The position numbers and the translations under genes were made by a program. 60,900 nt of DNA from an uncultured Clostridium sp. (GTDB lineage: Bacteria; Bacillota; Clostridia; TANB77; CAG-508), in NCBI GenBank assembly GCA_964587175.1, contig CAZPKK010000003.1, forward strand, positions 1 to 60,900. Direction: 5' to 3'. Each line of letters starts with the position of its first letter. Position 1 is the stretch's first letter. Shown here piece by piece: positions 21,918-40,880 of this stretch. The notes beneath the pieces are model-generated. The model searched no databases. It was not told the DNA's origin and was given only the letters and a program-made list of their open reading frames with translations.

Positions 21918-22648
21918 TGAAAAATATAGCAATAACAGTAAAAAATTTACATATTACATATAGAGGCTTAAAAAAGACATCTATTAGAGCTTCTTGGAAG
22001 TATATGTTTAATAAAGTGGAAAAATTCAAAGCATTAAAAGGAGTAAGTTTTAATGTAGAAGAAGGGAAAATAATTGGTATTATAGGCAAAAATGGTAGTG
22101 GAAAATCAACTATGCTAAAAGCAATTGCAGGAATATTTTCACCTGATAAAGGAAGTATTGATTTACATGGACATACCATATCACTTTTATCTATTGGTGT
22201 TGGTTTTAACAAAAAATTGACAGGAAAAGAAAACATTTATTTATCAGGTTTATTATTAGGTTTTACAGAAGAAGAAATAAAGAAAAAAGAAAAAGAAATA
22301 ATTAAATTTGCTGACATTGGAGAGTTCATTCATAAACCTGTTAAGACCTATTCATCTGGCATGTATTCTAAACTTGCTTTTGCAATTACTGCTATACTTG
22401 AAACAGATATTATATTGATTGATGAAGTTTTATCAGTAGGAGATGCAAAATTTAGAGAGAAAAGTTACAATAAAATGAAAGAACTAATTAGTGACGAGAA
22501 AAGAACTGTACTTATAGTTTCACATAGTATAGGTACAATAAGAGAACTTTGCAATGAAGTTATTTGGTTACATGATGGAAAAATCAAAATGCAAGGAACT
22601 CCAGAAGAAGTGCTAGAGAAATATGAAAAATTCATGGTGAAGGAATGA
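21917..22648 (+). CDS. ABC exporter ATP-binding protein (TagH/RgpD-like)
   Basis: Walker A (GKNGSGKST), the signature YSSGMYSKLAFA, and Walker B (ILIDE) are present. Confidence 0.88.
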   Translation: MKNIAITVKNLHITYRGLKKTSIRASWKYMFNKVEKFKALKGVSFNVEEGKIIGIIGKNGSGKSTMLKAIAGIFSPDKGSIDLHGHTISLLSIGVGFNKKLTGKENIYLSGLLLGFTEEEIKKKEKEIIKFADIGEFIHKPVKTYSSGMYSKLAFAITAILETDIILIDEVLSVGDAKFREKSYNKMKELISDEKRTVLIVSHSIGTIRELCNEVIWLHDGKIKMQGTPEEVLEKYEKFMVKE

Positions 22649-22656
22649 GAAAAAAT

Positions 22657-23448
22657 ATGAAAATACTTGCAGTTGGAGATATAGTAGGAGAGGTTGGATT
22701 AGAGTATTTAAAAAATTTGTTGCCTAAAATAATAGAAAAAGAAAATATAGATTTTGTTATAGTAAATGCAGAAAATACTTCAAGTGGGATGGGATTAACA
22801 ATAAAGGATTTTAATACATTATTAAAAATGCCAATAGATATAATGACTATGGGAAATCATACATGGGGAAAAAAAGATATTTTTGCCTTTATAGATAATC
22901 CTAAACTTATAAGACCTGCAAATTATTCAAAAGGTGTACCTGGAAAGGGGTATCAAATTTGCAACTGTAAAAATAAGAAGTTAGCAGTGATAAATTTGAT
23001 TGGAAGAACTGACATGAATGTTTTATCTGAAAATCCATTTATTGTTGTAGAAAAGTTAATAAATGATTTAAAACAAGAGTCAGATGCTATTATTGTAGAT
23101 TTTCATGCAGAAGCAACTGCAGAAAAAATAGCTATGAAATATTTTTTAGATGGTAAAGTGAACATTATTTTTGGTACGCATACACATGTGCAAACAGCTG
23201 ATGAAGAAATAACAGAAAAAGGAACAGCTTACATAACAGATTTGGGTATGACAGGACCTAAAGAATCTGTTATAGGTATGGATATATCAGCCTCAATAAA
23301 AAGATTTGTTACATCACTTCCCGAAAGATATAAATTAGCAGAAGGGAAGGCTGTTTTAAATGGATGTGTGTTTGAATTAGATGATGAAACTCTAAAAGCA
23401 AAAAATGTATATAGAATAAGATACAATTATATATCAGAGTGTAATTAA
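22657..23448 (+). CDS. ymdB: YmdB-family metallophosphoesterase (2',3'-cyclic-nucleotide phosphodiesterase)
   Basis: MKILAVGDIVGEVG...VNAENTSSGMGLT matches the YmdB/TIGR00282 pattern. Confidence 0.82.
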   Translation: MKILAVGDIVGEVGLEYLKNLLPKIIEKENIDFVIVNAENTSSGMGLTIKDFNTLLKMPIDIMTMGNHTWGKKDIFAFIDNPKLIRPANYSKGVPGKGYQICNCKNKKLAVINLIGRTDMNVLSENPFIVVEKLINDLKQESDAIIVDFHAEATAEKIAMKYFLDGKVNIIFGTHTHVQTADEEITEKGTAYITDLGMTGPKESVIGMDISASIKRFVTSLPERYKLAEGKAVLNGCVFELDDETLKAKNVYRIRYNYISECN

Positions 23449-23499: not shown

Positions 23500-23543
23500 A
23501 TTGTATAGGAAAAATCGAAGATTTTTGCTATATAACAAGGCCG

Positions 23544-23928: not shown

Positions 23929-23948
23929 TAGAAAGGAATGCGGTAAAA

Positions 23949-24212
23949 ATGGAAATTTTAAAAATCTCATCAAAATCAAATCCAAATTCAGTAGCAGGAG
24001 CTATTGCAGGTTTGGTAAAAGAATCTAACAGAGCAGAAATGCAAGCAATAGGAGCAGGAGCACTTAATCAAGCTGTAAAAGCTGTAGCAATAGCAAGAGG
24101 TTTTGTTGCACCAGCCGGAGTTGATTTAGTGTGCATACCTGCTTTTGCAGAAGTTGAAGTGGAAGGAGAAGATAGGACAGGAATTAAACTTATTGTAGAA
24201 TCAAGAAAGTAA
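23949..24212 (+). CDS. spoVS: Stage V sporulation protein S
   Basis: MEILKISSKSNPNSVAGAIAG...AIGAGALNQAVKAVAIARGF matches SpoVS essentially along its full length. Confidence 0.93.
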   Translation: MEILKISSKSNPNSVAGAIAGLVKESNRAEMQAIGAGALNQAVKAVAIARGFVAPAGVDLVCIPAFAEVEVEGEDRTGIKLIVESRK

Positions 24213-24244
24213 AATTATGAAATGAATAGAAATTAAATAAATTG

Positions 24245-24277
24245 GGGGCACTTCTTTTGATTGTGCCTCTTTTGTTT
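24245..24277 (+). terminator. Intrinsic terminator after spoVS
   Basis: Stem ggggcac/gtgcctc followed by ttttgttt. Confidence 0.6.
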
Positions 24278-24378
24278 CTATTTAAGATTAGTATTTACAA
24301 CAAAAAAATTAAAACTGGTTGAAAAAAAACAATTTATGTTATATATTTATATAGCAAGATATCTCTTAAGGAGGCTAT

Positions 24379-25965
24379 ATGAAATCAAATATTATAAAAT
24401 ATATTTTTATTGCTTTTGCAATTTTTATAATAGGATTTGCAATATATAAAATAAATTTTGAAGAAGCAGAGGAAGTTGCTGAAAATGATGTTTCTACAAC
24501 GCAAACTACTCAAGAGACAGAATCTGTATTAAGTATAGGAATCTCTGGGTTTGATAACATAAATCCACTAATTACAAATAATAAAGATATCATTAGTTTA
24601 TCTACTATTCTATATGAACCTTTGTTAGAAATTACAGATGACTATGGAATAGAATTGAAGCTTGCAGAAGAATGGTCAAAGTCAGATGCAACAACATATT
24701 TGATAAAACTAAAAGACAATTTAAAATGGGATAATGGAGGGGATGTAACAGGCCAGGATGTAAAATTCACGATAGAGAAGTTGCAAGAAGGAGATTCTGT
24801 GTATTCAGATAATGTAGAAAACATAGAATCTGTAGAAATAATAGATGGGAATACTATTAGATTTAATTTAAAAGAAGAAGAACCTTTTTTTGAATATAAT
24901 TTAATTTTTCCAATAATATCGAGTAGCCAGTTTGCAGACGAAGATTTTTACAATTCGAGAATTGCACCATATGCTACTGGAATGTATAAAGTAGAATCTG
25001 CAACAGAAGAAACAATGGAATTAGTACAAAATGACAATTGGGAAAATTCAGACAATATAGAAAGAAACATAGATAGAATTGTAATATATTTCTATGATAC
25101 AATGGGAGATGCGTTTAATAGTTTGAAAATAGGTAATATAGATATGGTATGCACATCTTTAACAAATGTTGAAGACTATATAGGAACGATTGGATATAAT
25201 ACAACAGAGTACAAAGGAAGAGAGCTTGATTTTATTAGTTTAAATTGTGATGATACCATATTATCCAATAAAGAAGTAAGACAAGCAATAAATTATGCTA
25301 TAGATAAAAATAAAATAAATTCAACTGTGTTTAGCAATAACTATTATATATCATCTTTCCCAATAGATTATGGAAGTTATTTATATGATAAAGAAAGTGA
25401 ATCTAGTTATGATACAGAAAAAGCAAAAGAGGTTTTAGAAGATGCTGGATGGGAATATAGATATGGATATTGGAGAAAAACAGAAAATTATACTACACAA
25501 TATTTAAACTTAAACTTAGTGGTGGATAATAGTAATGAAACTAGGGTTCAAGTAGCTGAACTAATTGAAGAACAATTAGAAGAAATAGGAATAAATGTAA
25601 CTGTATATAAAGTATCAAATTCGTCTTATAAAAATTATTTAGAAAACAAAAATTATGATATGATTATAACAGGCGTAAGCAATGGATATAGCCCGGATTT
25701 AACATATTTTTTAGGTGAAAATAATATAGCAAATTATCAAAACGAGGAAGTGACAAGTATATTAGAGGAGATAAAAAATATATCAGATAGTGAATTATTA
25801 AAAGAAAAATATGATAGAATAATTGAAATATATGAAGATGAAGTACCATATGTGTGTTTATATAGAAATACTAATAAAGTTGTGTATAATATAAGACTCA
25901 CTGGAGATATAACACCAAATAATTATACTGTGTATTATGGGATTGAGAATTGGTATAGGCAGTAG
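24379..25965 (+). CDS. ABC transporter substrate-binding protein, family 5 (peptide/nickel type), membrane-anchored
   Basis: It has an N-terminal TM segment. The block LAEEWSKSDATTYLIKLKDNLKWDNGGDVTGQDVKF is typical of SBP_bac_5. No cognate permease or ATPase gene is adjacent. Confidence 0.75.
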   Translation: MKSNIIKYIFIAFAIFIIGFAIYKINFEEAEEVAENDVSTTQTTQETESVLSIGISGFDNINPLITNNKDIISLSTILYEPLLEITDDYGIELKLAEEWSKSDATTYLIKLKDNLKWDNGGDVTGQDVKFTIEKLQEGDSVYSDNVENIESVEIIDGNTIRFNLKEEEPFFEYNLIFPIISSSQFADEDFYNSRIAPYATGMYKVESATEETMELVQNDNWENSDNIERNIDRIVIYFYDTMGDAFNSLKIGNIDMVCTSLTNVEDYIGTIGYNTTEYKGRELDFISLNCDDTILSNKEVRQAINYAIDKNKINSTVFSNNYYISSFPIDYGSYLYDKESESSYDTEKAKEVLEDAGWEYRYGYWRKTENYTTQYLNLNLVVDNSNETRVQVAELIEEQLEEIGINVTVYKVSNSSYKNYLENKNYDMIITGVSNGYSPDLTYFLGENNIANYQNEEVTSILEEIKNISDSELLKEKYDRIIEIYEDEVPYVCLYRNTNKVVYNIRLTGDITPNNYTVYYGIENWYRQ

Positions 25966-26122
25966 TGGTTTAAAGTCCGTCCCATTTTGATGTCACATAT
26001 ATTTTGTACTCTCCAAGTTTTCGAGTAAAAAATATATACCACGTGAGACTACCTATATATAAATATGTGACACGTGGGATTAATAAGAAGAATAAAACGC
26101 AAAATAAAATTTAAAAAAGCTC

Positions 26123-26166
26123 TTGACAAATTTTTTAAATAGTATATAATACAAACAGTTGTTTTA
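26123..26166 (+). promoter_or_regulatory. recA promoter with a degenerate LexA (Cheo-like) box
   Basis: TTGACA is at 26123-26128 and TATAAT at 26145-26150. They are followed by the palindromic-arm sequence AAACAGTTGTTT (GAAC-N4-GTTC-like) at 26153-26164. Confidence 0.5.
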
Positions 26167-26238
26167 CAAAAGCGAAAAATTAAGGAACGAAAGAATGCTA
26201 GTGAAAAGTAATCTATGAAATTTAAGGAGGAAAAATAA

Positions 26239-27297
26239 ATGGGAAATCAAAGTGCAGAAAAGATGAGAGCATTAGAAGCAGCATTAGGTCAAATTGAAAA
26301 ACAGTTTGGAAAAGGATCAGTAATGAAATTGGGAGATTTTGGAGCAATGGAGGTTGAGGCAATACCAACAGGTGCTTTAAGTTTGGATATAGCTTTAGGA
26401 ATAGGTGGAATTCCTAGAGGAAGAATAGTAGAAATATATGGACCAGAGTCATCTGGAAAGACAACTCTTGCATTACATATGATAGCAGAGGCGCAAAAAC
26501 TTGGTGGAGAAGCAGCTTTTGTTGATGCGGAGCATGCATTAGATCCAGTATATTCAAAACATTTAGGAGTAGATATAGATAATTTAATTGTTTCTCAACC
26601 AGATACTGGTGAACAAGCTTTAGAAATAACGGAGGCTTTAGTGAGAAGCGGAGCAATAGATATAATAGTTATAGATTCGGTTGCAGCATTGGTTCCAAAA
26701 GCAGAGATAGATGGTGATATGGGAGATGCTCATGTTGGCTTACAAGCAAGACTTATGTCACAAGCTTTAAGAAAATTAGCAGGAGTAATTAATAAATCAA
26801 ATGCAGTGGTTGTATTTATAAACCAATTAAGAGAGAAAGTTGGAATTATGTTTGGGAATCCAGAAACAACTGCTGGAGGAAGAGCTTTAAAATATTATGC
26901 TTCTGTAAGATTAGATATAAGAAAAATAGAAAATATCAAACAAGATGGAGAAGTGATAGGAAATAGAGCAAGAGTAAAGGTAGTTAAAAATAAAGTAGCA
27001 CCACCATTTAGAGAAGCTGAATTTGATATTATTTATGGTAAAGGCATTTCAAAAGAAGGTAATATCTTAGATATAGCAGTAAACTTAGATATAATAGAAA
27101 AATCAGGTTCTTGGTTTAGTTATAATGGGGAAAGAATTGGTCAAGGAAGAGAAAATGTAAAGAAATACTTAAAAGAAAATCCAAAAGTAGCAGAAGAAGT
27201 TGAGAAAAAGATTAGAGACAATTTTAACACAGCATTTGAGAAAAGCTTAGGCGATGAAGAAATCGATGAAGAACAAGAAACTGAGCCAGAAGAGTAA
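26239..27297 (+). CDS. recA: Recombinase RecA
   Basis: Walker A (GPESSGKTT) and full-length RecA similarity. Confidence 0.98.
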
Positions 27298-27329
27298 AGA
27301 AATTTAAAGATATTTATTTTTGCGTTATT

Positions 27330-27389
27330 ACATAAGTTTTAAATTCATTTAATTTAAAAAAATATATATCGTGAATTTAAAACTTATGT
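27330..27389 (+). terminator. 18-bp perfect inverted repeat after recA
   Basis: The arms are acataagttttaaattca ... tgaatttaaaacttatgt, followed by gtttagttt. Confidence 0.5.
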
Positions 27390-27425
27390 GTTTAGTTTAA
27401 AATAAATCTAAAAGGAGTAACCTTA

Positions 27426-27884
27426 ATGGTGGAAATTGAAGAGTTAGAAAAATTAGATAAATTAAAAACAAAAGTATTAAAATATATAATGTATAAAAAA
27501 AGAACAGAAAATGAAGTCAGAAGAAGATTTTTAGAAAATGACGAAGATTTACTAGAAGAAGTTATAAATGACTTAAAAGAAAATGGATATATTGATGACG
27601 AAAGCTATGTTGAAAGAGCTATATCTGAATTTATGAATTTAAATAATTTATCTATAAAAGAACTAAAATATAAATTACAAGCAAAAGGTGTAAATTCAAA
27701 AGTTCTTGAAAACTATTTTTATGAACATGAGGAAGAATTAGAAGAATTTGAAATAAATTCAGCTAAAAATCTCATATTAAAAAAACAGAATAGTATGGAA
27801 GAACAAGCCTTAATACAATATCTATTAAAAAAAGGGTATAAAATGGATACAATAAAAGAAGCTATAAAAGTTATTGATGAATAA
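27426..27884 (+). CDS. recX: Regulatory protein RecX
   Basis: The gene lies directly after recA. The protein is ~150 aa, helical-repeat and acidic/basic, consistent with RecX. Confidence 0.8.
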   Translation: MVEIEELEKLDKLKTKVLKYIMYKKRTENEVRRRFLENDEDLLEEVINDLKENGYIDDESYVERAISEFMNLNNLSIKELKYKLQAKGVNSKVLENYFYEHEEELEEFEINSAKNLILKKQNSMEEQALIQYLLKKGYKMDTIKEAIKVIDE

Positions 27885-27917
27885 TAAATATATCTTATTA
27901 GAATGGAAGGAAGAAAA

Positions 27918-28676
27918 ATGCAAAATATATTAACACTAGAAACTAATAAATATAAGCTAAAATTAGAGAACTTTGAAGGTCCTCTTGATCTATTATGCCA
28001 TTTGATAGATAAAAACAAAATGGATATTTATGATATTAATTTGAGTGAAATAACTGACCAATATGTAGAATATATAAATGAAATGGAAAAAATGAATTTA
28101 GAAATAACAAGTGAATTTTTAGTTATGGCATCAACACTTCTTTATCTAAAGTCTAAAAATCTATTACCAAATCAGATAGAAGATGAAAAAGAACTTACTG
28201 AAGAAGAGTTAATACAAAGAATAATAGAATATAAAAAATACAAAGAAATAACAAAAAAAATGCGCGAAATGTATGAAAGTATGAATAATGTAATCTTTAA
28301 GTTGCCTGAAATAATAGAACTTCCAAAGCAAAAACTAGATAGGGATTATAAAAAAGAATTAATATCAGATACATATGCTGAAATAGTAGAAAAAAATGCA
28401 AATAGACTAAATCAAAATGCTAAAAACATAGAGAAAATTGCAATTACAGAAACATATACTGTAGGCGAAAAGGTTAAAACTATGTTTAAAGCATTATTAC
28501 ACCAGAAACAATTTGTGTTTAACAAATTGTTTCCAAAGCAAAAATGTTCTAAGCCAGAGATAGTGACTGCTTTTACAGGACTATTAGAGCTTTCAAGAAG
28601 AAACAAAGTATTGACTTCACAAAAAGAATTATTTGGAGATATAACAGTAGAGAAAAATCAAAAAAAGATTAGTTAG
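27918..28676 (+). CDS. scpA: Segregation and condensation protein A
   Basis: FEGPLDLLCHLIDKNKMDIYDINLSEITDQY is the ScpA N-terminal signature. The SD is GGAAGGAAG. No scpB follows. Confidence 0.88.
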   Translation: MQNILTLETNKYKLKLENFEGPLDLLCHLIDKNKMDIYDINLSEITDQYVEYINEMEKMNLEITSEFLVMASTLLYLKSKNLLPNQIEDEKELTEEELIQRIIEYKKYKEITKKMREMYESMNNVIFKLPEIIELPKQKLDRDYKKELISDTYAEIVEKNANRLNQNAKNIEKIAITETYTVGEKVKTMFKALLHQKQFVFNKLFPKQKCSKPEIVTAFTGLLELSRRNKVLTSQKELFGDITVEKNQKKIS

Positions 28677-30627: not shown

Positions 30628-30702
<75 letters not shown>

Positions 30703-30844: not shown

Positions 30845-30906
30845 TTACATTAAAATTACATTAAAAACTGAAAAATATTTACATTAAAAAAATATTTACA
30901 TTAAAA
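30845..30906 (+). repeat. Four direct copies of TTACATTAAAA (candidate integrase arm-type sites)
   Basis: Copies are at 30845, 30856, 30879 and 30896. The last two lie within a repeated 17-mer, ATATTTACATTAAAAAA. Confidence 0.5.
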
Positions 30907-30988: not shown

Positions 30989-32378
30989 TTAAGTACATAG
31001 TTTTATTTTCTTTGAGTAAATACGACAGTCCTTAAGTTGTTTATTTATATATCTTGTAAGAATATGTCCATATGTTTCTTTTATTTGTCTATCATCAGCA
31101 TGACCAAGTATAGTTGCAATAACAAGAAGGTCCATTCCGGCTTCAATCATTCTAGTAACAGCAGTATGTCTACACATATGAGTGTGACAACCTTTTGTAA
31201 GTTCTAGTTTTATTTCCGCTTCTCTACAAATTCTTTTAAAAATATTATTTATAGAACGATGATCTATATATTTACCATCTCGCTGACAAAACAAAAGATT
31301 TTCTTTATTATTTTGATTACTTTTTGCATTTTCTATTTGTTTTCTGATGATATCTAGCATAAGATTTTCATCAAAAATATTAAAAGGAACGAATCTTTCA
31401 TCTGGTAAACCTTGTTCAATTTTTTTACGACCAGTTTTAGTGGTCTTACCCATAATAATTTTCCCATTATCGTTAGATAAAGTTCGATTTATTATAAAAC
31501 CATTATTTTTTAAATCTATATTTTTATCAATATCAACAGCACCTAACTCTCCAATTCTTGTAGCAGATAATAATGCACATACAAATAAATTTTTTAAAGT
31601 TTCTTCATCATAATTACACTTAAAACTTTTAACTAAAGGTTTAGTTAACAAATATTTTATTAACTTTCTTTGTTCTTCTATTTCAAAAGGTTGTACAAGT
31701 TGCTTTTTCTGTAAAGAAACAGGAGTATATACTCTTAACATGGGATTATCTGAATAATATATTATTTTATCTAAAACACATTGCATAAAACCTGCTTTTA
31801 ATTTAGCTACTATTTTATCTATTTCTCCGTTGAGATAAATATCTGATAGAATTAAGGAAATCTTGAATTTCATTATAACTTACTTTTTGAACTGGTTTTT
31901 GGAAATCTGACCAATTTTCAATATGTCTATAATGATAATTGTCTTTATCTACTGTATTTTTTATGATTTTCCCTGCTTTAAACTTTGTAGATCCTATTTT
32001 TTTACATACTTCTATAATAGTAATACTATGTTTTTTTACGTAGCTTTTTGTATGAATTTTTGCTTCTACATCTAATTTTTTATCAACTGCAGCTTTTTTC
32101 TTTTCTTCATTAGCAACAGTGGTTTGTTTTTTATTTATAGAGATTTGAGCTTGATATCTGAAATAACAATAGAAGCGGTCACAATATTTTAAACAGTCAG
32201 TACATTCAACACATTTATGACATTTTGCTGATCCAGTACGATTATTACATTTACTTCTATCAATACAATTTTTACAAATATCACATTCATAATCTAATTT
32301 TTTTCGTCTAGGTATCTTTTGTATAGTATCATAGATAGAGCCTTCGCCATTAGCTCTACGTGTACCTGTATTGTTCAT
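30989..32378 (-). pseudogene. int: Tyrosine integrase with a Cys-rich N-terminal insertion, frameshifted
   Basis: The N-terminal ORF (32378-31815) starts RRANGEGSIY. The C-terminal ORF (31873-30989) carries the R...HxxR...Y catalytic region (HMCRHTAVT, LGHADDRQIKETYGHI). The frames overlap at 31815-31873. Confidence 0.85.
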
Positions 32379-32612: not shown

Positions 32613-32683
32613 AACTTTCCCACTACTTATAGTAGTCGGGCGTCAGAAGACTTTGGAGAACTCTAGCAGTTCTCCTTTATTTT
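32613..32683 (+). ncRNA. Candidate small RNA 2 (about 70 nt), convergent with the MazF-fold gene
   Basis: It has the hairpin cccactact/agtagtcggg. The terminator ggagaact-ctagc-agttctcc is followed by a U-tract that overlaps the stop codon of ORF 32677-33360(-). Confidence 0.45.
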
Positions 32684-33360
32684 GTGAAAAATTTTATTAT
32701 TCCGTCATCTAATAAATCTAAACTATTTCTTGATAAACGAACTTTTCTTAATATTTCATCGTCAAATATACGTTGTTTACTTATTGTTGTTATCTGATTT
32801 ATTAAAGCAATACTGCCTATTTTCATTTTTGATATTTCATCTTTTATTTTTTTTACATATTCAAAATCAGTTGTAAATTGCTTAACTTGTTCTGTAGGTA
32901 AACTCCAAATATCAGTATATTTATTTGAAAGTTTTTCAATTTCATTTGAATATAATGTATTTAAAGTATCATATATTTCATTACCTAAATCTATTGAAGA
33001 TTTAGGATATTTCTTATTCTTCTTTGAGGTTAGAGGAATTATATTTAATGTTCCATTCTTAGGATTATCATATTTGTCTAAAACGACACAATAATGTAAA
33101 CCTCCAAGCTCATGTCCTATATTAAAACCTAAATTAGCTTTTATTATACTTCCTCGTTTAAAAACGATAAGTTTTTTAGTATCAAATGTCTTTTCCTCAT
33201 CATGATAATTAGCATAGTCATTAATCCAATAAGCTAATAAATGACTAGTCTTATATTCTTTCATATCTATGTGTTTTAGAAAAGATACATCAAGTCTATT
33301 TAAAGAATTATCTTTATGTATTATTGCTTTATCTTTTAATATATCATCATCATTTTTCAA
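32677..33360 (-). CDS. Oversized MazF/PemK-fold protein (227 aa)
   Basis: The blocks FKRGSIIKANLGFNIGHELGGLHYCVVL..NIIPLTS and SIALINQITTISKQRI parallel B. subtilis NdoA ([43 protein letters not shown]). Confidence 0.6.
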   Translation of the reverse strand: MKNDDDILKDKAIIHKDNSLNRLDVSFLKHIDMKEYKTSHLLAYWINDYANYHDEEKTFDTKKLIVFKRGSIIKANLGFNIGHELGGLHYCVVLDKYDNPKNGTLNIIPLTSKKNKKYPKSSIDLGNEIYDTLNTLYSNEIEKLSNKYTDIWSLPTEQVKQFTTDFEYVKKIKDEISKMKIGSIALINQITTISKQRIFDDEILRKVRLSRNSLDLLDDGIIKFFTK

Positions 33361-33656: not shown

Positions 33657-34325
33657 TTATTTAAACATACTTGTGATTTCAGCCTTTATTACTTTTCCTA
33701 TAATTTGGAAATTTCTTGTTTTCATTTCTTCTTCAGTAAGATTTATTACAGGATAATATGGATTTATAGACTGTAACTGAAGTATTTCTTTATCTTTTAC
33801 TAATTTTCTTATTAGAATCAAACTTTCATCTAAACAAATTAAAAAATAATAATTATTTTCATAAGTGTTTTGCCTACAAACTATAACAATATCATCTTTT
33901 CCGAGCATAGGAAGAAGAGAGTCATCGTCTCTTATTTCATAAGCAAAGTATTCTTTATCGCTATCTAAATTAAAATTTGAATATATATAATGATTAAAAT
34001 TATCAACTATAAATTTATTGTCTTTAAATTCAATATTATGGATTAATGGTATTTTATCGTTAATTTGATAAACCGAATCATTAAAAAAAGAATCTACAAA
34101 ATTAACATACCCACAAACTTCCATTAATTCTTCATATGTTGTAACTCCCTTCGAAGCTTTTGAGATTTTTTCTAATATTCTAGGAGAGGGCGGAGTCGAT
34201 TTTTTTTTGTTAATAATTCTTGACAAATAACCTGCATCAACGTTTGATAATCGTGCAAATTCATTTAAAGACATATTAGATTGACACTTTTTTAAAATTT
34301 CTATAAATTTTTTTTGATTATACAT
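33657..34325 (-). CDS. CI-like repressor (XRE HTH plus S24 peptidase-like domain)
   Basis: The HTH is MSLNEFARLSNVDAGYLSRIINKK. The C-terminal domain has Ser (DDSLLPML) and Lys (LIRKLV) 38 aa apart, as in LexA/CI autoproteases. Confidence 0.8.
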   Translation of the reverse strand: MYNQKKFIEILKKCQSNMSLNEFARLSNVDAGYLSRIINKKKSTPPSPRILEKISKASKGVTTYEELMEVCGYVNFVDSFFNDSVYQINDKIPLIHNIEFKDNKFIVDNFNHYIYSNFNLDSDKEYFAYEIRDDDSLLPMLGKDDIVIVCRQNTYENNYYFLICLDESLILIRKLVKDKEILQLQSINPYYPVINLTEEEMKTRNFQIIGKVIKAEITSMFK

Positions 34326-34372: not shown

Positions 34373-34432
34373 AAAAAAAACAATAATTTTTTTAAAAAAA
34401 GTGTTGACAAAAAACAATAATTGATATATATT
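34373..34432. promoter_or_regulatory. Divergent cI/cro control region with repeated operators
   Basis: AAAAAACAATAAT occurs at 34375 and 34409. The rightward promoter is TTGACA (34404), a 17-nt spacer, then TATATT (34427). A third near-copy, TTGTCAAAAAACAAT, is at 34687. Confidence 0.6.
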
Positions 34433-35724: not shown

Positions 35725-36297
35725 ATGACAGAAATATGGAAAGATATTAAAGATTATGAAGGTATATATCAAATTTCTAATTTAGGCAGAGTAAAGCGAC
35801 TTAGCTGGATAAAAAAAGATAAATTAAATAGAAAGACATATTATACAGATTGCATAATGAAAGGTCATATAGGAAAAGACGGATATAAGAGAGTTGTTTT
35901 TACAAACAACAATTCAAAAAAGAAAAGTTTTTTGGTACATAGGTTAGTAGCAATGACATTCTTAAATAATAGTATGAATAAACCAGAAGTAAATCATATT
36001 GATGGAGATAAATTAAATAATAATATGAAAAATTTAGAATGGGTTACTGCTAAAGAAAATACTCATCATGCTTGGAGAAAAGGACTAATAAATGAAAAAT
36101 GGCACATAGCACATAATCAGAAAAGAATTATCGCCATAGATAAGAAAAATAATGTAGAAATTTACTTTAATAATATAAAAATAGCTAGTAATAAATTAGG
36201 AACATCTACAATGACAATAAGAAAATTATTAAAAGGGAAAAGAGTTATCAAGGGAAATTGTAAGAGTAAAAGGTGGGATTTTAAATATGCAAACTAG
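35725..36297 (+). CDS. Free-standing HNH homing endonuclease (NUMOD4 plus HNH_3)
   Basis: IWKDIKDYEGIYQISNLGRVKRL is a NUMOD4 motif. EVNHIDGDKLNNNMKNLEWVTAKENTHHA is an HNH motif. Confidence 0.8.
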   Translation: MTEIWKDIKDYEGIYQISNLGRVKRLSWIKKDKLNRKTYYTDCIMKGHIGKDGYKRVVFTNNNSKKKSFLVHRLVAMTFLNNSMNKPEVNHIDGDKLNNNMKNLEWVTAKENTHHAWRKGLINEKWHIAHNQKRIIAIDKKNNVEIYFNNIKIASNKLGTSTMTIRKLLKGKRVIKGNCKSKRWDFKYAN

Positions 36298-36927
36298 AGA
36301 AGGTTGGTTAGAAGAAAGAAAGAAGCGGATTACGGAGGCTCAGACGCAGCTACAGTTTTAGGATTAAACCCATATAAAACAAATATTGAACTATGGGAAG
36401 AAAAGACAAGAAGAAGAGAAGCCGAAGATATTTCTGATAAACCTTATGTAAAATATGGACATCAGGCAGAGGAATATTTGCGAGAGTTATTTGTATTAGA
36501 TTTTCCAAAATATGAAGTAAAACATGAAGAATACTCAATAATAAGACATCCTAAATATCCATTTTTATTTGCTAGTTTAGATGGACAACTTGTGGATAAA
36601 GAAACTGGAGAGTTAGGAGTTTTAGAAATAAAAACAACAAATATACTACAAAGTATGCAGAAAGAAAAGTGGAAAGAGAAAATTCCAGATAACTATTTTT
36701 GCCAGGTACTTCATTACCTAAATGTAACAGGATATTCATTTGCAATATTAAAGGCTCAGCTTAAGTATGATTATTCTGGTGATATAAGACTAGAAACTAA
36801 GCATTATTATATAGATAGAAAAGATTACGAAGAGGACATAAAATATTTGGAAAAACAAGAAATAGAGTTTTGGAAGAACTATGTAGAGAAAGATATTAGA
36901 CCACCACTAGAATTACCAAATATATGA
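36287..36927 (+). pseudogene. YqaJ-type recombination exonuclease, frameshifted near the N-terminus
   Basis: ATG 36287 (SD AAAGGTGGG) reads MQTREGWLEERKKRIT. The +1 frame continues GGSDAATVLGLNPYKTNIELWEEKT, the YqaJ signature. One nucleotide is missing at about 36333/36334. Confidence 0.8.
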
Positions 36928-36944: not shown

Positions 36945-37298
36945 ATGGAAGAAGAATTAAAAAGACTAAGTAAATTAAGTGAAGAAAATCAAGAAGATAT
37001 AGAAAAACAAAAAATAGTAGGCGTTAAATTTGAAAGTAAATATCAAAGAGGAGCATTTAAAGGAAGAGAATATAGTTATTTTACAAAATTAGATTTAAAA
37101 GAAGGAGATATAGTAGATTGTCCTACTAGATTTGGGCCAAGTATAGGAATGGTTACTAGAACAGACATAAAAGAAGAAGAAATAGAGAAAATAAGAAATT
37201 TTATAAAAAATATAAATCTTAAATATAACAGAGAAGCGTATCTAAATGGAAAAATTGAGGTAGAGGAGGAAATAGAAGATGGAATTGAAAGTAAGTGA
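36945..37298 (+). CDS. Hypothetical protein
   Basis: ORF with an AGGAGG SD. No family was recognised. Confidence 0.5.
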   Translation: MEEELKRLSKLSEENQEDIEKQKIVGVKFESKYQRGAFKGREYSYFTKLDLKEGDIVDCPTRFGPSIGMVTRTDIKEEEIEKIRNFIKNINLKYNREAYLNGKIEVEEEIEDGIESK

Positions 37299-38094
37299 AA
37301 TTCAACAAATACAACCAGTTAATTTTAACTTTGAAGAATTGAAAAAAGAATTAATTGAAAAATCTAAATATTATAAAACAATAGTTTATACAGATGAGAA
37401 TATAAGTATAGCAAAACAAGATAGAACGAATTTGCATAAGTTAGTAAATGCAATAAACGATGAAAAGATTCGTATAAAAAAAGAAATTATGAAACCGTAT
37501 CTCCCTTTTGAAGTACAATGTAAAGAGTTAATGGAAATAGTAAAAGATGCAACAGAAAATATTGACATGCAAATTAAAGATTTTGAACAAAAAAAGAAAG
37601 ATGAAAAGCTTTTAGAAATAACTAATTATTTTGGAGAAAAAGTTGGAATCTATAAAGATTTAATAAATTTTGATTTGATTTTTAATGAAAGATGGCTAAA
37701 TATTACTTACGATATGAAACAAATTCAAGAAGATATAGATCATATTATAGCAAAAACAAAAAATGATTTAATGACAATTGATTCTATTGTAAAAAACGAA
37801 GAAACAAATGCACAAACAAGAGACTTTTATTTTAGAAATATAAATAATCCTAGTGTATTGGGCGAATCTTTAAATGAAGCTAAGAGGATAGAAGCAATAA
37901 AAAGCAATTTGGCAGAAATGAAAAAACAACAAGAAGAGGCAGAAAAAGCAAAACAAACAATAATTCCAAAACAAGAACAACAAGAAACTGAAAAAATCTA
38001 CGAACTATGTTTTAAAACATATTTAACAAAAGAGCAGATGTTTAAATTAAAAGAATTCTTTGTAGAGAATAATATTAAATACGAAAAGATATAG
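37279..38094 (+). CDS. DUF1351-family protein (accessory to RecT modules)
   Basis: The pattern ISIAKQDRTNLHKLVNAINDEKIRIKKEIMKPYLPFEVQCKEL matches my memory of DUF1351. Confidence 0.6.
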   Translation: MELKVSEIQQIQPVNFNFEELKKELIEKSKYYKTIVYTDENISIAKQDRTNLHKLVNAINDEKIRIKKEIMKPYLPFEVQCKELMEIVKDATENIDMQIKDFEQKKKDEKLLEITNYFGEKVGIYKDLINFDLIFNERWLNITYDMKQIQEDIDHIIAKTKNDLMTIDSIVKNEETNAQTRDFYFRNINNPSVLGESLNEAKRIEAIKSNLAEMKKQQEEAEKAKQTIIPKQEQQETEKIYELCFKTYLTKEQMFKLKEFFVENNIKYEKI

Positions 38095-38107
38095 GGGGAA
38101 AAGTAAA

Positions 38108-38368
38108 ATGGAAATTTTAAAAGTATCAAGCAAATCAAATCCAAATTCAGTAGCAGGAGCAATTGCAGGGTTGGTAAAAGAATCTAACAAAGCAGAAATG
38201 CAAGCAATAGGAGCAGGAGCTGTAAATCAAGCTGTAAAAGCTATAGCAATAGCAAGAGGTTTTTTAGCCCCAGCAGGAATAGATTTGGTGTGTATACCTG
38301 CATTTACAGAAGTTGATGTGGAAAAAGAGAATTGTACAGCGATGAAAATTATTGTGAAAAAAATTTAG
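38108..38368 (+). CDS. spoVS: Phage-encoded SpoVS paralog
   Basis: By manual count, 69 of 86 aligned residues are identical to the host SpoVS at 23949-24212. The N-terminal 66 aa differ only by conservative changes. Confidence 0.9.
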   Translation: MEILKVSSKSNPNSVAGAIAGLVKESNKAEMQAIGAGAVNQAVKAIAIARGFLAPAGIDLVCIPAFTEVDVEKENCTAMKIIVKKI

Positions 38369-38386: not shown

Positions 38387-39424
38387 ATGAAAGTAAATAA
38401 TAGTTTAGTTCAAAATAAAGAGGATAAAAAAGTAAGTTTTAGTAATTTCTTAACAAATCAATTTGTACAAAAAAAAATATATGAAGTTGTAGGAAAAGAT
38501 AGTCAAAAATTTATGACATCAATTTTATCTGCAGTGACAAATAATCCTACTTTGCAAGAATGTGACTCTATGAGTATTCTTAACTGTGCATTTTTAGGAG
38601 AAGGGCTAAAATTAAGTCCTAGTCCACAGTTGGGGCAATATTATATGGTGCCTTTTAAAGACAATAAAAAAGGATGTAAAGTAGCTCAATTCCAGTTAGG
38701 ATATAAAGGCTATATACAATTAGCAGAAAGAAGTGGATATTATAAAAAAATTAATGTATTAGCAATAAAAGAAGGAGAACTAATAAAATATGATCCGTTA
38801 AATGAAGAAATAGAAGTAAATATAATTGAAGATGAAGAACTAAGAGAAGAAACTCTAGCAGTAGGTTACTATGCAATGTTTGAATACATGAACGGTTTTA
38901 GAAAAGCTATTTACTGGAGTAAAAAGAAAATGCTAAATCACGCTGATAAATATTCGCAAGCTTTTAATAAAGAATCTTATTTTAAATTACTAGCTGGAGA
39001 GATACCTCAAGAAGATATGTGGAAATATTCTTCTTATTGGTACAAAGATTTTGATGGAATGGCTTTTAAAACCATGTTAAGACAACTAATAAGCAAGTGG
39101 GGAATTATGAGTATAGATATGCAAAGGGCTTATGAAAATGATATGGCAGCAATACAAGATGATGGACAACCTTATTACATAGAAAATGATAAAGAAGAGC
39201 AAGCAGAGGATGAGAATCCAATAAATATTATTATAGACACTGAAACAAAACAAAATGAAAATACAGAGAATATAGAAGAAAAACCAAAAAGAACTAGAAA
39301 AACAACAAAAGTAATAGAAAAATCAGAAGAAAATGATATACAAAAATCAAAAGAAAAAGAAGAAGCAGAAGAAACTAGATTTTTAATTGATAAAGATATA
39401 GAAAATGCATTCTTTAACAATTAA
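38387..39424 (+). CDS. recT: RecT-family single-strand annealing protein
   Basis: QFQLGYKGYIQLAERSGYYKKI is RecT-typical. The C-terminal tail is acidic/Lys-rich. Confidence 0.85.
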   Translation: MKVNNSLVQNKEDKKVSFSNFLTNQFVQKKIYEVVGKDSQKFMTSILSAVTNNPTLQECDSMSILNCAFLGEGLKLSPSPQLGQYYMVPFKDNKKGCKVAQFQLGYKGYIQLAERSGYYKKINVLAIKEGELIKYDPLNEEIEVNIIEDEELREETLAVGYYAMFEYMNGFRKAIYWSKKKMLNHADKYSQAFNKESYFKLLAGEIPQEDMWKYSSYWYKDFDGMAFKTMLRQLISKWGIMSIDMQRAYENDMAAIQDDGQPYYIENDKEEQAEDENPINIIIDTETKQNENTENIEEKPKRTRKTTKVIEKSEENDIQKSKEKEEAEETRFLIDKDIENAFFNN

Positions 39425-39491
39425 CAACTAAGGGCAGACACAAAATCTGCCCTTAATTAATAAGTGTGATATACGAAAGGAGAAAAAGACA

Positions 39492-40235
39492 ATGGCAGAC
39501 AGTAAAGAGAGTTTTGTTTTTTATAAAAGTTTTTATAAGGCAATAAAAAAAATACCGAAAAAATATCAATTAGAATTATATGATGCTATTGCTCAATATT
39601 CACTAACAGGAAATGAGCCAGAAAATCTAAGTGGTACTGCTTCTGCTATGTTTGTCCTTATAAAACCTAATATAGATAGTTCACAAAGAAGATATGAGGC
39701 TAGCGTAGAAAATGGTAAAAAAGGTGGAAGACCAAAAAAAGACCCTCAAAAAAAACCTAATCAAAACCCAGAAGAAACCCAAAAAAAACCTAATCAAAAC
39801 CTTAATGTAGATGTTGCTGTAGATGATAATGTAGATGTAAATGTAAATGATAATGTAGATGTTGATGATAATATAAATTTTTCAAAAATAATTCGAGAAT
39901 ATGAAGAAAATATTGCACCAATAACAGCAACAGCTAAAGAAATTTTACAAAGTTATTATGAGGATTTAGGACCAGAACTCCTAATAGAAGCAATAAGACG
40001 AGCGTCTTTAGCAAATAAACGAAATTGCAAATATATACAAGGAATACTGAACAGTTGGATTAACAAAGGTTTTAAAACTCTGGTTGAAGTAAAAAGTGAA
40101 GAAGAGGAGTTTAAAAATAAAAAATCTACAAAGGAAACTAATAAAAAAGGTTATAACAATTATTCTCAGAGAGATCCTGAGATGATAGATTTTAATAAAC
40201 TTTATGCAAATATGCCTCCAGGAGAAATGACATGA
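39492..40235 (+). CDS. Replisome organiser / DnaD-domain replication protein
   Basis: The N-terminus is of the FVFYKSFYKAIKKIP type. The C-terminal DnaD-like block is NCKYIQGILNSWINKG. The central linker is repetitive. Confidence 0.7.
   Translation: MADSKESFVFYKSFYKAIKKIPKKYQLELYDAIAQYSLTGNEPENLSGTASAMFVLIKPNIDSSQRRYEASVENGKKGGRPKKDPQKKPNQNPEETQKKPNQNLNVDVAVDDNVDVNVNDNVDVDDNINFSKIIREYEENIAPITATAKEILQSYYEDLGPELLIEAIRRASLANKRNCKYIQGILNSWINKGFKTLVEVKSEEEEFKNKKSTKETNKKGYNNYSQRDPEMIDFNKLYANMPPGEMT
39747..39862 (+). repeat. Direct repeats inside the replisome organiser gene (candidate ori iterons)
   Basis: The 22-mer CAAAAAAAACCTAATCAAAACC occurs at 39747 and 39780. GATAATGTAGATGT occurs at 39824 and 39849, with AATGTAGATGT at 39804. 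Confidence 0.5.
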
Positions 40236-40408: not shown

Positions 40409-40880
40409 ATGAAGATTTTAGCGATAGATCCAGGAAATTTAGAAAGTGCATATTGCTTAATGGATAGTGAAACATATAAGCCACTTGAATTTGGAAAAAT
40501 AGATAATAAGCAATTAAGATATGGCTTATATAATGCAGAATATGATGTTTTGATAATAGAAATGATAGCAAGTTACCGGCATGGCAGTAGGACAAACAGT
40601 TTTTGAAACTTGTGTATGGATAGGTAGATTTAAAGAAATAGCAAAGTTTAACGACGTAAAAGTGGAATATGTTTACAGAAAAGATGAAAAAATGAATTTA
40701 TGCTATTCGATGAAAGCTAAAGATAGCAACATAAGACAAGCTCTAATAGATAGATTTGGAGTGGTTGGTACGAAGAAAAATCCAGGTTGGTTTTATGGAT
40801 TTAAAAAGGATATATGGTCTGCCTATGCTGTAGGAGTTACTTATTGCGACAATTTTTTAAAACAAACACGAAGAGAATAG
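40409..40880 (+). pseudogene. RuvC-like Holliday junction resolvase, frameshifted
   Basis: MKILAIDPGNLESAY...IIEMIASY joins the next ORF at (G)[17 protein letters not shown]. An extra C lies at about 40576-40577. Confidence 0.55.

What the first reader, a model, noticed from the sequence alone, without database searches (positions are those of the whole stretch)
38108..38368. Prophage carries a close paralog of the host sporulation gene spoVS inside its recombination operon
- **Similarity.** The 86-aa ORF is 69/86 identical (manual count) to the chromosomal SpoVS at 23949-24212.
- **Pattern of divergence.** Residues 1-66 are nearly unchanged, while the C-terminal 20 aa diverge. The DNA is visibly alignable too, which suggests a fairly recent capture from a related host.
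- **Context.** The gene sits between a DUF1351 gene and recT. It has its own SD but no structured leader like that of the host copy, so it should be expressed with early or recombination genes rather than under sporulation control.
- **Interpretation.** Phage-borne sporulation regulators are known as a concept (sigma factors, spo0A-like genes). A SpoVS copy embedded in a RecT/YqaJ module suggests either manipulation of host sporulation or a nucleic-acid-related role of the SpoVS fold used by the phage.
Basis: partly seen in the sequence, partly recalled or inferred. Interest (0 to 1): 0.7.

Follow-up and report, generated by a model that had tools for sequence, protein, structure and literature searches.

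The report
Phage-type SpoVS inside recombination operon
A prophage in this clostridial contig carries its own version of the small host protein SpoVS inside its DNA-recombination operon. This version belongs to a phage-specific branch of the family that always sits just before a gene for a single-strand-DNA-binding protein, so it more likely has a DNA-handling role than a purely sporulation role.

Summary
**Observation: confirmed.** 38108-38368 (+) encodes an intact 86-aa SpoVS (Pfam PF04232, E 4.7e-38). It is 69/84 identical to the chromosomal SpoVS at 23949-24212 and lies between DUF1351 and RecT in the early operon of a real prophage.

**Recent capture: not supported.** The gene belongs to a phage-specific SpoVS branch.
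- The chromosomal tail E84-x-R86 is replaced by K/R84.
- This prophage's closest subgroup shares the C-terminus NEN[CHRQ]TAMKI.VKK.
- Every close member with readable context lies in the same YqaJ-DUF1351-SpoVS-RecT module.
- Its divergence tracks that of the neighbouring genes.
- dN/dS inside the branch is 0.12-0.23.

**SpoVS is an accessory insert.** It is absent from 110 of 112 related RecT modules sampled.

**Context pattern.** In low-GC phages, K/R84 copies lie directly upstream, or within two small genes, of an ssDNA-binding gene in four module architectures:
- two kinds of RecT module;
- a DUF669 SSB-like gene after Sak4;
- an SSB before PolA.

**Fold.** Alba-like (pLDDT 93.8; TM 0.95-0.97 to solved SpoVS).

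**Reading.** Phage-borne SpoVS is already catalogued (PHROG 35646, virome "AMG"). The phage-specific branch and its SSB/SSAP linkage appear undescribed in the literature I searched. I favour a nucleic-acid-binding accessory of the recombination/replication module (about 0.4). Interference with the host SpoVS pathway is a close rival.

The parts
38108..38368 (+). Phage-type SpoVS gene (86 aa; tail K84-K85-I86, Cys76)
   Evidence: ORF. Pfam PF04232 E 4.7e-38. PHROG 35646 E 1.5e-23. AF2 model pLDDT 93.8. TM 0.95-0.97 to 2EH1/2EK0/9a7h_B.
38094..38098 (+). Shine-Dalgarno G-run, 9 nt before the ATG, overlapping the DUF1351 stop codon
   Evidence: Read directly from the sequence.
37279..38094 (+). 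DUF1351 gene, usual upstream partner of RecT in this module
   Evidence: PF07083 E 5.5e-29. phrog_674. It abuts RecT directly in most related modules.
38387..39424 (+). RecT single-strand annealing protein, immediately downstream of SpoVS
   Evidence: PF03837 E 3.6e-41.
36304..36927 (+). YqaJ-type exonuclease of the recombination module
   Evidence: PF09588 E 1.2e-29.
36945..37298 (+). Small conserved module ORF (117 aa, phrog_3489)
   Evidence: Homologs in L081, L082 and L096.
35725..36297 (+). NUMOD4/HNH_3 homing-endonuclease-like gene upstream of yqaJ
   Evidence: Same arrangement in L126.
34404..34432 (+). Best early promoter-like site (TTGACA-17-TATATT) facing the early operon
   Evidence: This is a consensus match only.
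33657..34325 (-). CI-like repressor, divergent from the early operon
   Evidence: phrog_4 and phrog_6201.
30989..31873 (-). Tyrosine integrase next to tRNA-Gly (30628-30701); left end of the prophage
   Evidence: phrog_1 E 6e-35. tRNAs.
39425..39459 (.). 15-bp hairpin directly after the recT stop codon (possible operon boundary or stabiliser; weak T-tail)
39492..40235 (+). DUF6291 + DnaB_2 replication-initiation gene following the recombination module
23949..24212 (+). Chromosomal (host-type) spoVS, tail E84-S-R86, monocistronic
   Evidence: Same ymdB-spoVS-SBP-recA-recX-scpA synteny in L215 and L217.
22645..23448 (+). ymdB, conserved upstream neighbour of chromosomal spoVS
   Evidence: PF13277 E 3.4e-102.
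26239..27297 (+). Host recA, 2 kb downstream of chromosomal spoVS
   Evidence: PF00154 E 3e-143.

Best explanation
**What it is (shown)**
- The ORF is a functional member of a phage-specific branch of the SpoVS family, a small Alba-fold protein.
- It is a stably inherited accessory gene of the early YqaJ-DUF1351-SpoVS-RecT operon in a lineage of temperate phages of low-GC Clostridia.
- It keeps the conserved core of the family but has a changed C-terminal tail.
- It has no promoter or terminator of its own.

**When it is made (inferred)**
- It is transcribed from the early promoter after the CI-like repressor is lifted.
- It is translated from its own SD, together with the exonuclease and the annealing protein.

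**What it most likely does (inferred)**
- Like other Alba-fold proteins, it binds nucleic acid.
- It works alongside the single-strand-DNA-binding or annealing protein encoded just downstream (RecT here), helping phage recombination or recombination-dependent replication.
- It is not a sporulation-timed regulator.
- The phage-specific tail (E84 to K/R, loss of R86) would change which host partner it contacts.
For: **Family and fold**
- Pfam SpoVS at full length.
- All 12 columns that are invariant in alignment A2 (which includes this copy) carry the shared residue here.
- AF2 gives pLDDT 93.8 with a beta-alpha-beta-alpha-beta-beta topology.
- Foldseek gives TM 0.95-0.97 to solved or modelled SpoVS, and TM 0.60-0.69 with E 3e-4 to 1e-3 to archaeal Alba DNA/RNA-binding proteins.
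- The Alba relationship is published (PMC2732212, PMC11621453).

**Phage-specific branch**
- The C-terminus NEN[CHRQ]TAMKI.VKK is shared with P0001, P0007, P0011, P0017, P0021, P0056 and P0061.
- A neighbour-joining tree groups exactly these proteins with the window copy.
- All context-verified low-GC phage copies have K/R84. All three context-verified chromosomal copies have E84-x-R86.

**Fixed synteny and co-inheritance**
- 16 of 16 informative places encoding P0001, P0011, P0017 or P0021 have DUF1351-SpoVS-RecT; the upstream YqaJ gene is seen wherever the contig reaches that far.
- SpoVS identity correlates with identity of the neighbouring genes, rho 0.72-0.93.

**Purifying selection**
- dN/dS is 0.12-0.23 within the branch.

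**Operon embedding**
- Gaps of 13 nt and 18 nt to the neighbouring genes, an SD, and no strong internal promoter-like site.

**Recurrent linkage to ssDNA-binding genes in four architectures**
- (i) DUF1351-SpoVS-RecT.
- (ii) SbcC-like ATPase-SpoVS-(0-2 small ORFs)-RecT-MBL hydrolase, in L007-L019.
- (iii) Sak4-SpoVS-DUF669/SSB-like-primase, in L001, L210 and L219.
- (iv) primase-x-SpoVS-SSB (phrog_14578, E 1e-40)-PolA, in L002, L212 and L214.
- A prediction made from the tail residue alone (K/R84 means phage-borne, with an SSB or SSAP gene downstream) held in 8 of 8 proteins with readable context.

**Not tied to endospores**
- Homologs occur in phages whose hosts do not form endospores: Stenotrophomonas, Bacteroides, and a WhiB/RecA-carrying environmental clade.
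Against: **SpoVS is not needed for this recombination module**
- It is missing from 30 of 32 related modules in GTDB genomes and from 80 of the best 80 in IMG/VR. In most of these, DUF1351 abuts RecT.
- In other phages the same slot holds unrelated small ORFs, so it may be a general insertion site.

**The four architectures may not be independent**
- Recombinases are known to be swapped at a fixed genome position in temperate phages (my background knowledge).

**Outside low-GC phages the contexts differ**
- A sigma factor, the terminase-portal region, Mu GemA, or only hypothetical proteins in cultured lytic phages.

**Similarity to the host protein**
- The protein is still about 80% identical to chromosomal SpoVS. 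It could simply act in the host protein's pathway.

**No direct binding data**
- I found no published test of nucleic-acid binding by any SpoVS.
Confidence: 0.42

Rival explanations
1. **Host mimic.** The phage copy acts in the host SpoVS pathway. It keeps the conserved core, and possibly the dimer interface, but carries a changed tail. It would replace, titrate or heterodimerise with host SpoVS or its partners during lytic growth. This would shift host cell fate (late sporulation, sigma-K and sigma-D dependent genes, autolysis) in the phage's favour.
For: - Residues 1-66 are 60/66 identical to the host protein. The differences concentrate in the beta-hairpin tip and tail.
- The RecT-module branch was found only in Clostridia-type low-GC contigs with integrases and repressors, that is, temperate phages of likely spore-formers.
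- B. subtilis spoVS mutations alter sigma-K- and sigma-D-directed expression, as summarised in PMC2732212.
- Phage-borne sporulation regulators that change spore yield are documented (PMC9429907, PMC10294663).
- dS to the present host's gene is the lowest of all pairs, 0.31 against 0.49-0.75.
Against: - It sits in the early lytic operon without its own promoter. It is therefore not an obvious lysogenic-conversion gene.
- SpoVS homologs also occur in phages of hosts that do not form endospores.
- SpoVS does not appear in the text or held supplements of the survey that listed sporulation genes enriched in phages of spore-formers.
- This reading does not explain why the gene always lies next to an SSB or SSAP gene in four different modules.
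Confidence: 0.33
2. **Recent capture.** The gene was picked up recently from a close relative of the present host and is a passenger still resembling the donor gene.
For: - 82% protein identity and 86% DNA identity to the host copy.
- dS of 0.31 to the host copy is lower than dS to any other phage copy.
- No database protein exceeds 85% identity.
Against: - The C-terminal signature and K84 tail are shared with a phage branch that always lies in the same module.
- Divergence is correlated with that of DUF1351, RecT and YqaJ.
- Purifying selection acts inside the branch.
- The breakpoint test for partial conversion by the host gene is not significant after correcting for the roughly 67 breakpoints tried (best uncorrected p 0.0067).
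- The low dS can be explained by shared codon usage in the same host.
Confidence: 0.1
3. **Neutral cargo.** The DUF1351|RecT junction is simply a permissive insertion slot. SpoVS is one of several unrelated small genes carried there with no role for the phage.
For: - Other phages carry unrelated small ORFs (Zn-ribbon-like and others) in the same slot.
- Most related modules have nothing there.
Against: - The ORF is intact in all independent metagenomic contigs examined.
- dN/dS is 0.12-0.23.
- There is a conserved phage-specific tail.
- The same linkage to ssDNA-binding genes recurs in three other module types.
Confidence: 0.1

Closest known systems
Chromosomal SpoVS of endospore-formers (B. 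subtilis SpoVS; Pfam PF04232; Thermus structures 2EH1/2EK0)
   Same: - Same family and fold: full-length Pfam hit and TM 0.95-0.97.
- 82% identical to the host's own copy.
- All invariant residues of alignment A2 are kept.
   Different: - The chromosomal gene is monocistronic in a (rny)-ymdB-spoVS-...-recA locus. The phage gene sits inside an early recombination operon.
- The chromosomal tail E84-x-R86 is replaced by K-K-I. The usually conserved R76 is Cys.
- The biochemical activity of the chromosomal protein is itself unknown.
Phage-encoded SpoVS as a 'sporulation AMG/moron' (PHROG 35646; annotated genes in Bacillus phage BCD7, Lysinibacillus phages LysYB1/2, Stenotrophomonas phage TS-12, Streptomyces phage BRock; virome reports PMC6172770, PMC8940887)
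   Same: A SpoVS homolog carried on a phage genome.
   Different: - Those copies are 40-65% identical to this one. They lie among hypothetical or nucleotide-metabolism genes, not next to a recombinase.
- None of the 50,697 GenBank phage records has the RecT-module type, and no hit is a Clostridium phage.
- The window gene has no promoter or terminator of its own, unlike a classical moron.
Archaeal Alba / Sso10b DNA- and RNA-binding proteins
   Same: Same beta-alpha-beta-alpha-beta-beta fold by Foldseek (TM 0.60-0.69, E 3e-4 to 1e-3). This is consistent with PMC2732212 and PMC11621453.
   Different: Only 10-20% identity. Nucleic-acid binding has not been demonstrated for any SpoVS.
Accessory genes of phage SynExo / single-strand-annealing modules (YqaJ-RecT, Sak4 with its cognate SSB)
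   Same: Co-oriented and tightly spaced with an exonuclease and an annealing protein. In other phages it lies between Sak4 and its DUF669 SSB-like partner.
   Different: - SpoVS is not a recognised component of these modules.
- It is absent from about 98% of related YqaJ-DUF1351-RecT modules sampled.
Phage-encoded sporulation regulators (sigF/sigG-like sigma factors, spo0A homologs)
   Same: A host-derived 'sporulation' gene on a phage of a likely spore-former (PMC9429907, PMC10294663).
   Different: - Those are transcription factors with a demonstrated or clear route to the sporulation network.
- SpoVS has no known target and does not appear in that survey's text or held supplements.

Membership tests
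SpoVS (Pfam PF04232) | Score above the curated Pfam threshold over the whole domain | tested here: met
   129.2 bits against a cut-off of 24; residues 2-83 match profile positions 1-82 of 83.
SpoVS (Pfam PF04232) | Family-invariant residues (S10, A16, G35, N40, Q41, K44, A47, A49, R50, G51, A54, P64) | tested here: met
   All are present in the window copy in the 32-sequence alignment A2, which includes this copy.
SpoVS (Pfam PF04232) | SpoVS three-dimensional fold | tested here: met
   AF2 pLDDT 93.8, pTM 0.82. TM 0.95-0.97 and rmsd 0.8-1.0 A to 2EH1, 2EK0 and 9a7h_B. phmmer E 3.5e-26 to 2EH1.
Chromosomal (host-type) SpoVS orthologs | C-terminal tail E84-x-R86 and A29 | tested here: not met
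   - The window copy has K84-K85-I86. A29 is retained.
- In 91 E84-type sequences, R86 is present in 88 of 91 and A29 in 91 of 91.
- All context-verified low-GC phage copies have K/R84.
Chromosomal (host-type) SpoVS orthologs | Conserved ymdB-spoVS-(SBP)-recA chromosomal neighbourhood | tested here: not met
   The phage copy lies between DUF1351 and RecT. The host copy and the loci of P0039 and P0054 have the chromosomal neighbourhood.
Sporulation gene in the functional sense | Sporulation-specific expression and a stage V phenotype | not testable with these tools
   Needs transcript mapping and genetics. The sequence shows only an early-operon position with no own promoter.
Phage moron / lysogenic-conversion gene | Autonomous promoter and terminator, often opposite in orientation to the flanking genes | tested here: not met
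   Same strand, 13-nt and 18-nt intergenic gaps, no strong promoter-like site or terminator flanking it. This rests on a consensus scan only.
Alba superfamily nucleic-acid-binding proteins | Alba fold | tested here: met
   Foldseek hits to 1NFJ, 1H0X, 1Y9X, 2Z7C and 8XAP, TM 0.60-0.69, E 3e-4 to 1e-3.
Alba superfamily nucleic-acid-binding proteins | Demonstrated DNA or RNA binding | not testable with these tools
   I found no binding data for any SpoVS. Binding is a prediction only (PMC2732212).
YqaJ/RecT (SynExo) recombination module | Adjacent co-oriented exonuclease and RecT-family annealing protein | tested here: met
   YqaJ PF09588 E 1.2e-29 and RecT PF03837 E 3.6e-41 on the same strand.
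YqaJ/RecT (SynExo) recombination module | SpoVS as a regular component of the module | tested here: not met
   Present in 2 of 32 GTDB loci and 0 of the best 80 IMG/VR loci retrieved with this RecT.

The most novel reading that the evidence does not exclude
Phage-type SpoVS (K/R84 tail) is a so-far unrecognised small Alba-fold cofactor of phage single-strand-DNA-binding and annealing proteins (RecT, Sak4/DUF669, phage SSB).

By extension, the chromosomal 'sporulation' protein SpoVS, encoded next to ymdB, rny and recA, would be a general nucleic-acid-transaction factor whose sporulation phenotype is secondary.
Probability: 0.3. Interest if true: 0.7.

Novelty: new variant of a known kind. Interest (0 to 1): 0.5.

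Why it matters
- **An open question about SpoVS.** SpoVS is conserved in endospore-forming Firmicutes and in several non-sporulating phyla. I found no report of its biochemical activity since the 1995 genetic description. The phage copies offer a natural experiment. The same small protein, with a distinctive tail, has been kept immediately upstream of an SSB or annealing-protein gene in four different replication/recombination modules.
- **A concrete test.** If that linkage is functional, it gives a hypothesis that can be tested directly: binding to ssDNA, dsDNA or RNA, or to RecT or SSB.
- **Practical relevance.** It could matter for RecT-based recombineering in Clostridia.
- **Caution for virome studies.** SpoVS on a viral contig should not be read automatically as "the virus manipulates sporulation". 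Many carriers appear to infect hosts that do not form endospores.
- **If the host-mimic rival is right.** It would add a new class of phage-encoded sporulation modulators.

Tried and rejected
1. **SpoVS replaces a missing SSB in the module.** No canonical SSB occurs in SpoVS-positive RecT modules. It is also absent from 17 of 28 SpoVS-negative ones. The difference is not significant, so I dropped this idea.

2. **Mosaic gene or gene conversion by the host copy.**
   - The informative-site breakpoint scan gave a best uncorrected p of 0.0067 with one partner and no signal with the others.
   - dS is equal in the 5' and 3' parts.
   - This is not supported. The low dS to the host (0.31) remains unexplained.

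3. **Universal association of phage SpoVS with recombinases.** Rejected. L003 lies next to a sigma factor, L020 and L021 in the terminase-portal region, L022 by a metallopeptidase and L024 by Mu GemA. The cultured phages TS-12, LysYB1 and BCD7 have it among hypothetical or nucleotide-metabolism genes.

4. **RecA linkage.** 54 of 80 IMG/VR loci have a RecA-like gene 3-4.5 kb upstream. These form one environmental clade with conserved gene order that also carries WhiB and a dNMP kinase. It counts as a single observation at a distance of several genes.

5. **Tree support.** The neighbour-joining tree recovers the phage subgroup, but bootstrap is only 0.2-0.3 for an 86-aa protein. A first attempt timed out.

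6. **Rfam.** No known RNA family anywhere except tRNAs, including the host spoVS leader.

7. **Source organism.** The phage protein is not on record by exact look-up. The GTDB scan did not contain this genome; the best RecT match is 70% identical. The host is therefore described only as a low-GC (28%) Clostridia-type bacterium.

8. **Literature.**
   - No paper links SpoVS to RecT or to phage recombination modules.
   - No paper mentions both YunD and SpoVS. The YunD-SpoVS pair appears only in supplementary tables, with one crosslink and a model score of about 0.45.
Full report
**1.

The window has an ATG-initiated 86-codon ORF at 38108-38368 (+) and an 87-codon ORF at 23949-24212 (+).
- BLASTP aligns them without gaps: 69/84 identical, 80/84 positive, E 8e-51. 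The DNA is 86% identical over 252 nt.
- Both hit Pfam SpoVS (PF04232) at E 4.7e-38 over the whole model.
- A G-run SD at 38094-38098 overlaps the DUF1351 stop codon. The gap to recT is 18 nt.

**2. It is in a real prophage and in its early operon**

- PHROG and Pfam scans identify an integrase (30989-31873, -) next to a tRNA-Gly gene.
- They also identify a CI-like repressor (33657-34325, -), small and large terminase subunits, portal, minor and major head proteins and a tape measure protein.
- The contig ends inside the tail genes, so the right prophage end is not in the window.
- The best promoter-like site (TTGACA-17-TATATT, 34404-34432) faces the plus-strand early genes. From there to the end of recT the scan lists only weak promoter-like matches (at most 9 of 12) and one weak terminator-like site inside recT. 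A 15-bp hairpin follows recT.
- The gene is therefore not built like a moron with its own signals. I infer that it is expressed with the recombination genes after derepression.

**3. The host copy is an ordinary chromosomal spoVS**

- It lies in ymdB-spoVS-SBP_bac_5-recA-recX-scpA, behind a roughly 500-nt intergenic region with hairpin terminators on both sides.
- The same neighbourhood, with rny upstream in one case, is found around two closely related proteins, P0039 and P0054.
- Rfam finds no known RNA element in the leader.

**4. Not a recent capture: a phage-specific branch that travels with the module**

No protein in the 5.8-billion-sequence collection exceeds 85% identity to the phage copy. 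Sorting the 120 best hits by their C-termini revealed a subgroup that shares the window copy's tail.
- The subgroup is P0001, P0007, P0011, P0017, P0021, P0056 and P0061. Its C-terminus reads (E/N)N[CHRQ]TAMKI(I/F)VKK(L/I)N, against EGEDRTGIKLIVESRK in the host type.
- I looked up where four of these are encoded. P0011 gave 6 places, P0001 gave 6, P0021 gave 1 and P0017 gave 3. Each of these 16 places has DUF1351-SpoVS-RecT, and the longer contigs also show YqaJ upstream; integrase, repressor and DnaB_2 genes are often nearby. L126 even has the NUMOD4/HNH gene upstream, as in the window. The one P0007 place is too short to read its context.
- Across ten module-bearing loci, pairwise SpoVS identity correlates with that of DUF1351 (rho 0.74), RecT (0.72) and YqaJ (0.93).
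- A neighbour-joining tree groups the window copy with exactly this subgroup, although bootstrap is low (0.2-0.3) for so short a protein.
- Within the branch dN/dS is 0.12-0.23. Against the host copy it is 0.35-0.39: about 0.2 in codons 1-66 and about 1 in codons 67-84.

The divergent C-terminus is thus a shared, selected feature of the phage branch.

One loose end remains. dS to the present host's gene (0.31) is lower than to other branch members (0.49-0.75). A breakpoint scan for partial gene conversion is not significant after correction. Shared codon usage in the same host is the simpler explanation, but I could not settle this.

**5. SpoVS is an accessory insert, not a core part of the RecT module**

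- Using this RecT as the query, 2 of 32 related modules in GTDB genomes carry SpoVS (L083, L084) and none of the best 80 in IMG/VR do.
- In most of these modules DUF1351 abuts RecT. In a few, the slot holds unrelated small ORFs.
- IMG/VR does contain three human-gut contigs with a more divergent version of the same arrangement (L004-L006; SpoVS 69% identical).

**6. A wider pattern: phage-type SpoVS sits just upstream of an ssDNA-binding gene**

Every context-verified copy from low-GC phages has K or R at position 84. The three context-verified chromosomal copies have E84-x-R86. Among 91 E84-type sequences, R86 is present in 88 and A29 in all 91.

The K/R84 copies occur in four different module architectures:
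- (i) YqaJ-DUF1351-SpoVS-RecT: the window clade, L004-6, L083 and L084.
- (ii) SbcC-like ATPase-SpoVS-(0-2 small ORFs)-divergent RecT-MBL hydrolase: L007-L019, three SpoVS clusters.
- (iii) Gp157-Sak4 (AAA_24, phrog_2872)-SpoVS-DUF669/SSB-like (phrog_18107/378)-primase: L001, L210 and L219.
- (iv) primase-x-SpoVS-SSB (phrog_14578, E about 1e-40)-DNA polymerase A: L002, L212-L214.

After seeing the tail signature, I predicted that K/R84 proteins of unknown context would be phage-borne with such a neighbour. This held for all eight with readable context (P0001, P0011, P0017, P0021, P0070, P0074, P0091, P0097). The two E84 controls were chromosomal.

If roughly one or two in fifteen to twenty-five early genes is an SSB or SSAP gene, four independent coincidences would be rare, of the order of 1e-3 to 1e-4. 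This is my own rough estimate. Independence is uncertain, because recombinases are known to be exchanged at a fixed position in temperate phages (background knowledge).

**7. Limits of the pattern**

- Other viral SpoVS genes have other neighbours: a sigma-70-like factor (L003), the terminase-portal region (L020, L021), a metallopeptidase (L022) and Mu GemA (L024).
- In the cultured phages TS-12, LysYB1 and BCD7 the neighbours are hypothetical or nucleotide-metabolism genes.
- Fifty-four of the 80 best IMG/VR loci form one environmental clade (GC about 0.44) that carries WhiB, a dNMP kinase and a RecA-like gene 3-4.5 kb upstream. The WhiB gene suggests actinobacterial hosts.
- Together with the Stenotrophomonas and Bacteroides phages, this shows that phage SpoVS is not tied to endospore formation.

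**8. Fold**

- AlphaFold2 with a 47-sequence alignment gives pLDDT 93.8 and a beta-alpha-beta-alpha-beta-beta topology. The variable residues 72-76 lie at the tip of the C-terminal beta-hairpin, and residues 84-86 at the end of the last strand.
- Foldseek gives TM 0.95-0.97 to Thermus SpoVS (2EH1, 2EK0) and to B. subtilis SpoVS in an integrative YunD-SpoVS model (9a7h). It gives TM 0.60-0.69 to archaeal Alba proteins.
- The Alba relationship and the prediction of nucleic-acid binding are published (PMC2732212, PMC11621453).
- The YunD link rests on one in-cell crosslink and a model score of about 0.45. I treat it only as a lead.

**9. What is known and what is new**

- Phage-borne SpoVS is already catalogued. 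PHROG 35646 is labelled 'sporulation protein' in the category moron/AMG. Genes are annotated in 15 of 50,697 GenBank phage records. It is reported as a virome AMG (PMC6172770, PMC8940887).
- It does not appear in the text or held supplements of the survey of sporulation genes enriched in phages of spore-formers (PMC10294663).
- In the searchable literature I found nothing on a phage-specific SpoVS branch, its tail signature, or its linkage to RecT, Sak4 or SSB genes.
- No hit in the GenBank phage collection comes from a Clostridium phage.

**10. Verdict**

- 'Recent capture' is not supported.
- 'Expressed with early recombination genes' is consistent with the sequence.
- Interference with the host SpoVS pathway remains a close rival (about 0.33). 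The two readings are not mutually exclusive.
- I rate this a new variant of a known kind, of moderate interest.

Noticed in passing
window 40409-40606 and 40581-40880 (+): A Holliday-junction resolvase (phrog_1770) is split into two overlapping ORFs that match the N- and C-terminal halves of the profile. This could be a frameshift, a pseudogene, a sequencing error or programmed slippage.
   Followed up: no
window 35725-36297 (+); L126:1990-2562: A NUMOD4/HNH_3 homing-endonuclease-like gene sits directly upstream of yqaJ in the window and in one related metagenomic phage, but not in others. It may be a mobile insertion in the recombination module.
   Followed up: partly
L023, L026-L080 (IMG/VR), e.g. 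L026:1386-6258: A large environmental phage clade (GC about 0.44) keeps a block of RecA-like, WhiB, dNMP kinase and SpoVS genes in conserved order. The WhiB gene suggests actinobacterial hosts, which would not form endospores.
   Followed up: partly
L003:5986-7705 (109-kb IMG/VR contig, GC 0.43): Here a Bacillus-type SpoVS (tail IVEPR) is followed directly by a 454-aa sigma-70-like factor. This is a possible regulatory pairing, unlike the recombination contexts.
   Followed up: no
window 22645-28676; L215; L217: The chromosomal synteny (rny)-ymdB-spoVS-SBP_bac_5-recA-recX-scpA is identical in the window and in two related Clostridia contigs. Host spoVS is thus itself linked to recA and to RNA-turnover genes.
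   Followed up: partly
alignment positions 29 and 84-86 of SpoVS (window 38192-38194, 38357-38365): The tail E84-x-R86 and A29 are near-invariant in chromosomal-type proteins. All context-verified low-GC phage copies have K/R84 and lack R86, and many have V or I at position 29. The window copy also has Cys in place of the usual Arg76.
   Followed up: yes
PDB 9a7h (Foldseek hit): The best structural match is an integrative model of B. subtilis SpoVS bound to YunD, a protein I recall (not checked here) as a metallophosphoesterase-like protein. The model rests on one in-cell crosslink and a score of about 0.45. It hints at a protein partner for SpoVS.
   Followed up: partly
L212:5924-9314 and L213:1529-4919: A phage DNA polymerase A gene is interrupted by a GIY-YIG/NUMOD3 homing endonuclease gene, splitting it into two ORFs.
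   Followed up: no
window 30871-30904: A perfect 17-nt tandem direct repeat (AAAAATATTTACATTAA, two copies) lies between tRNA-Gly (30628-30701) and the integrase gene. It could be an integrase arm-type site or part of att. The two tRNA-Gly(tcc) genes are only 73% identical, so they are not an att duplication.
   Followed up: no
window 32677-33360 (-): A MazE/MazF-like gene (phrog_1412, E 2.5e-45) lies in the lysogeny module between the integrase and the repressor.
   Followed up: no
L085 and L210 (both from MAG GCA_947626295.1, contigs CANQRS010000042 and CANQRS010000001): One rabbit-gut Clostridia MAG carries two prophage-like regions. One has a YqaJ-DUF1351-RecT module without SpoVS. The other has Sak4-SpoVS-SSB-like. 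SpoVS presence therefore follows the phage, not the host.
   Followed up: no
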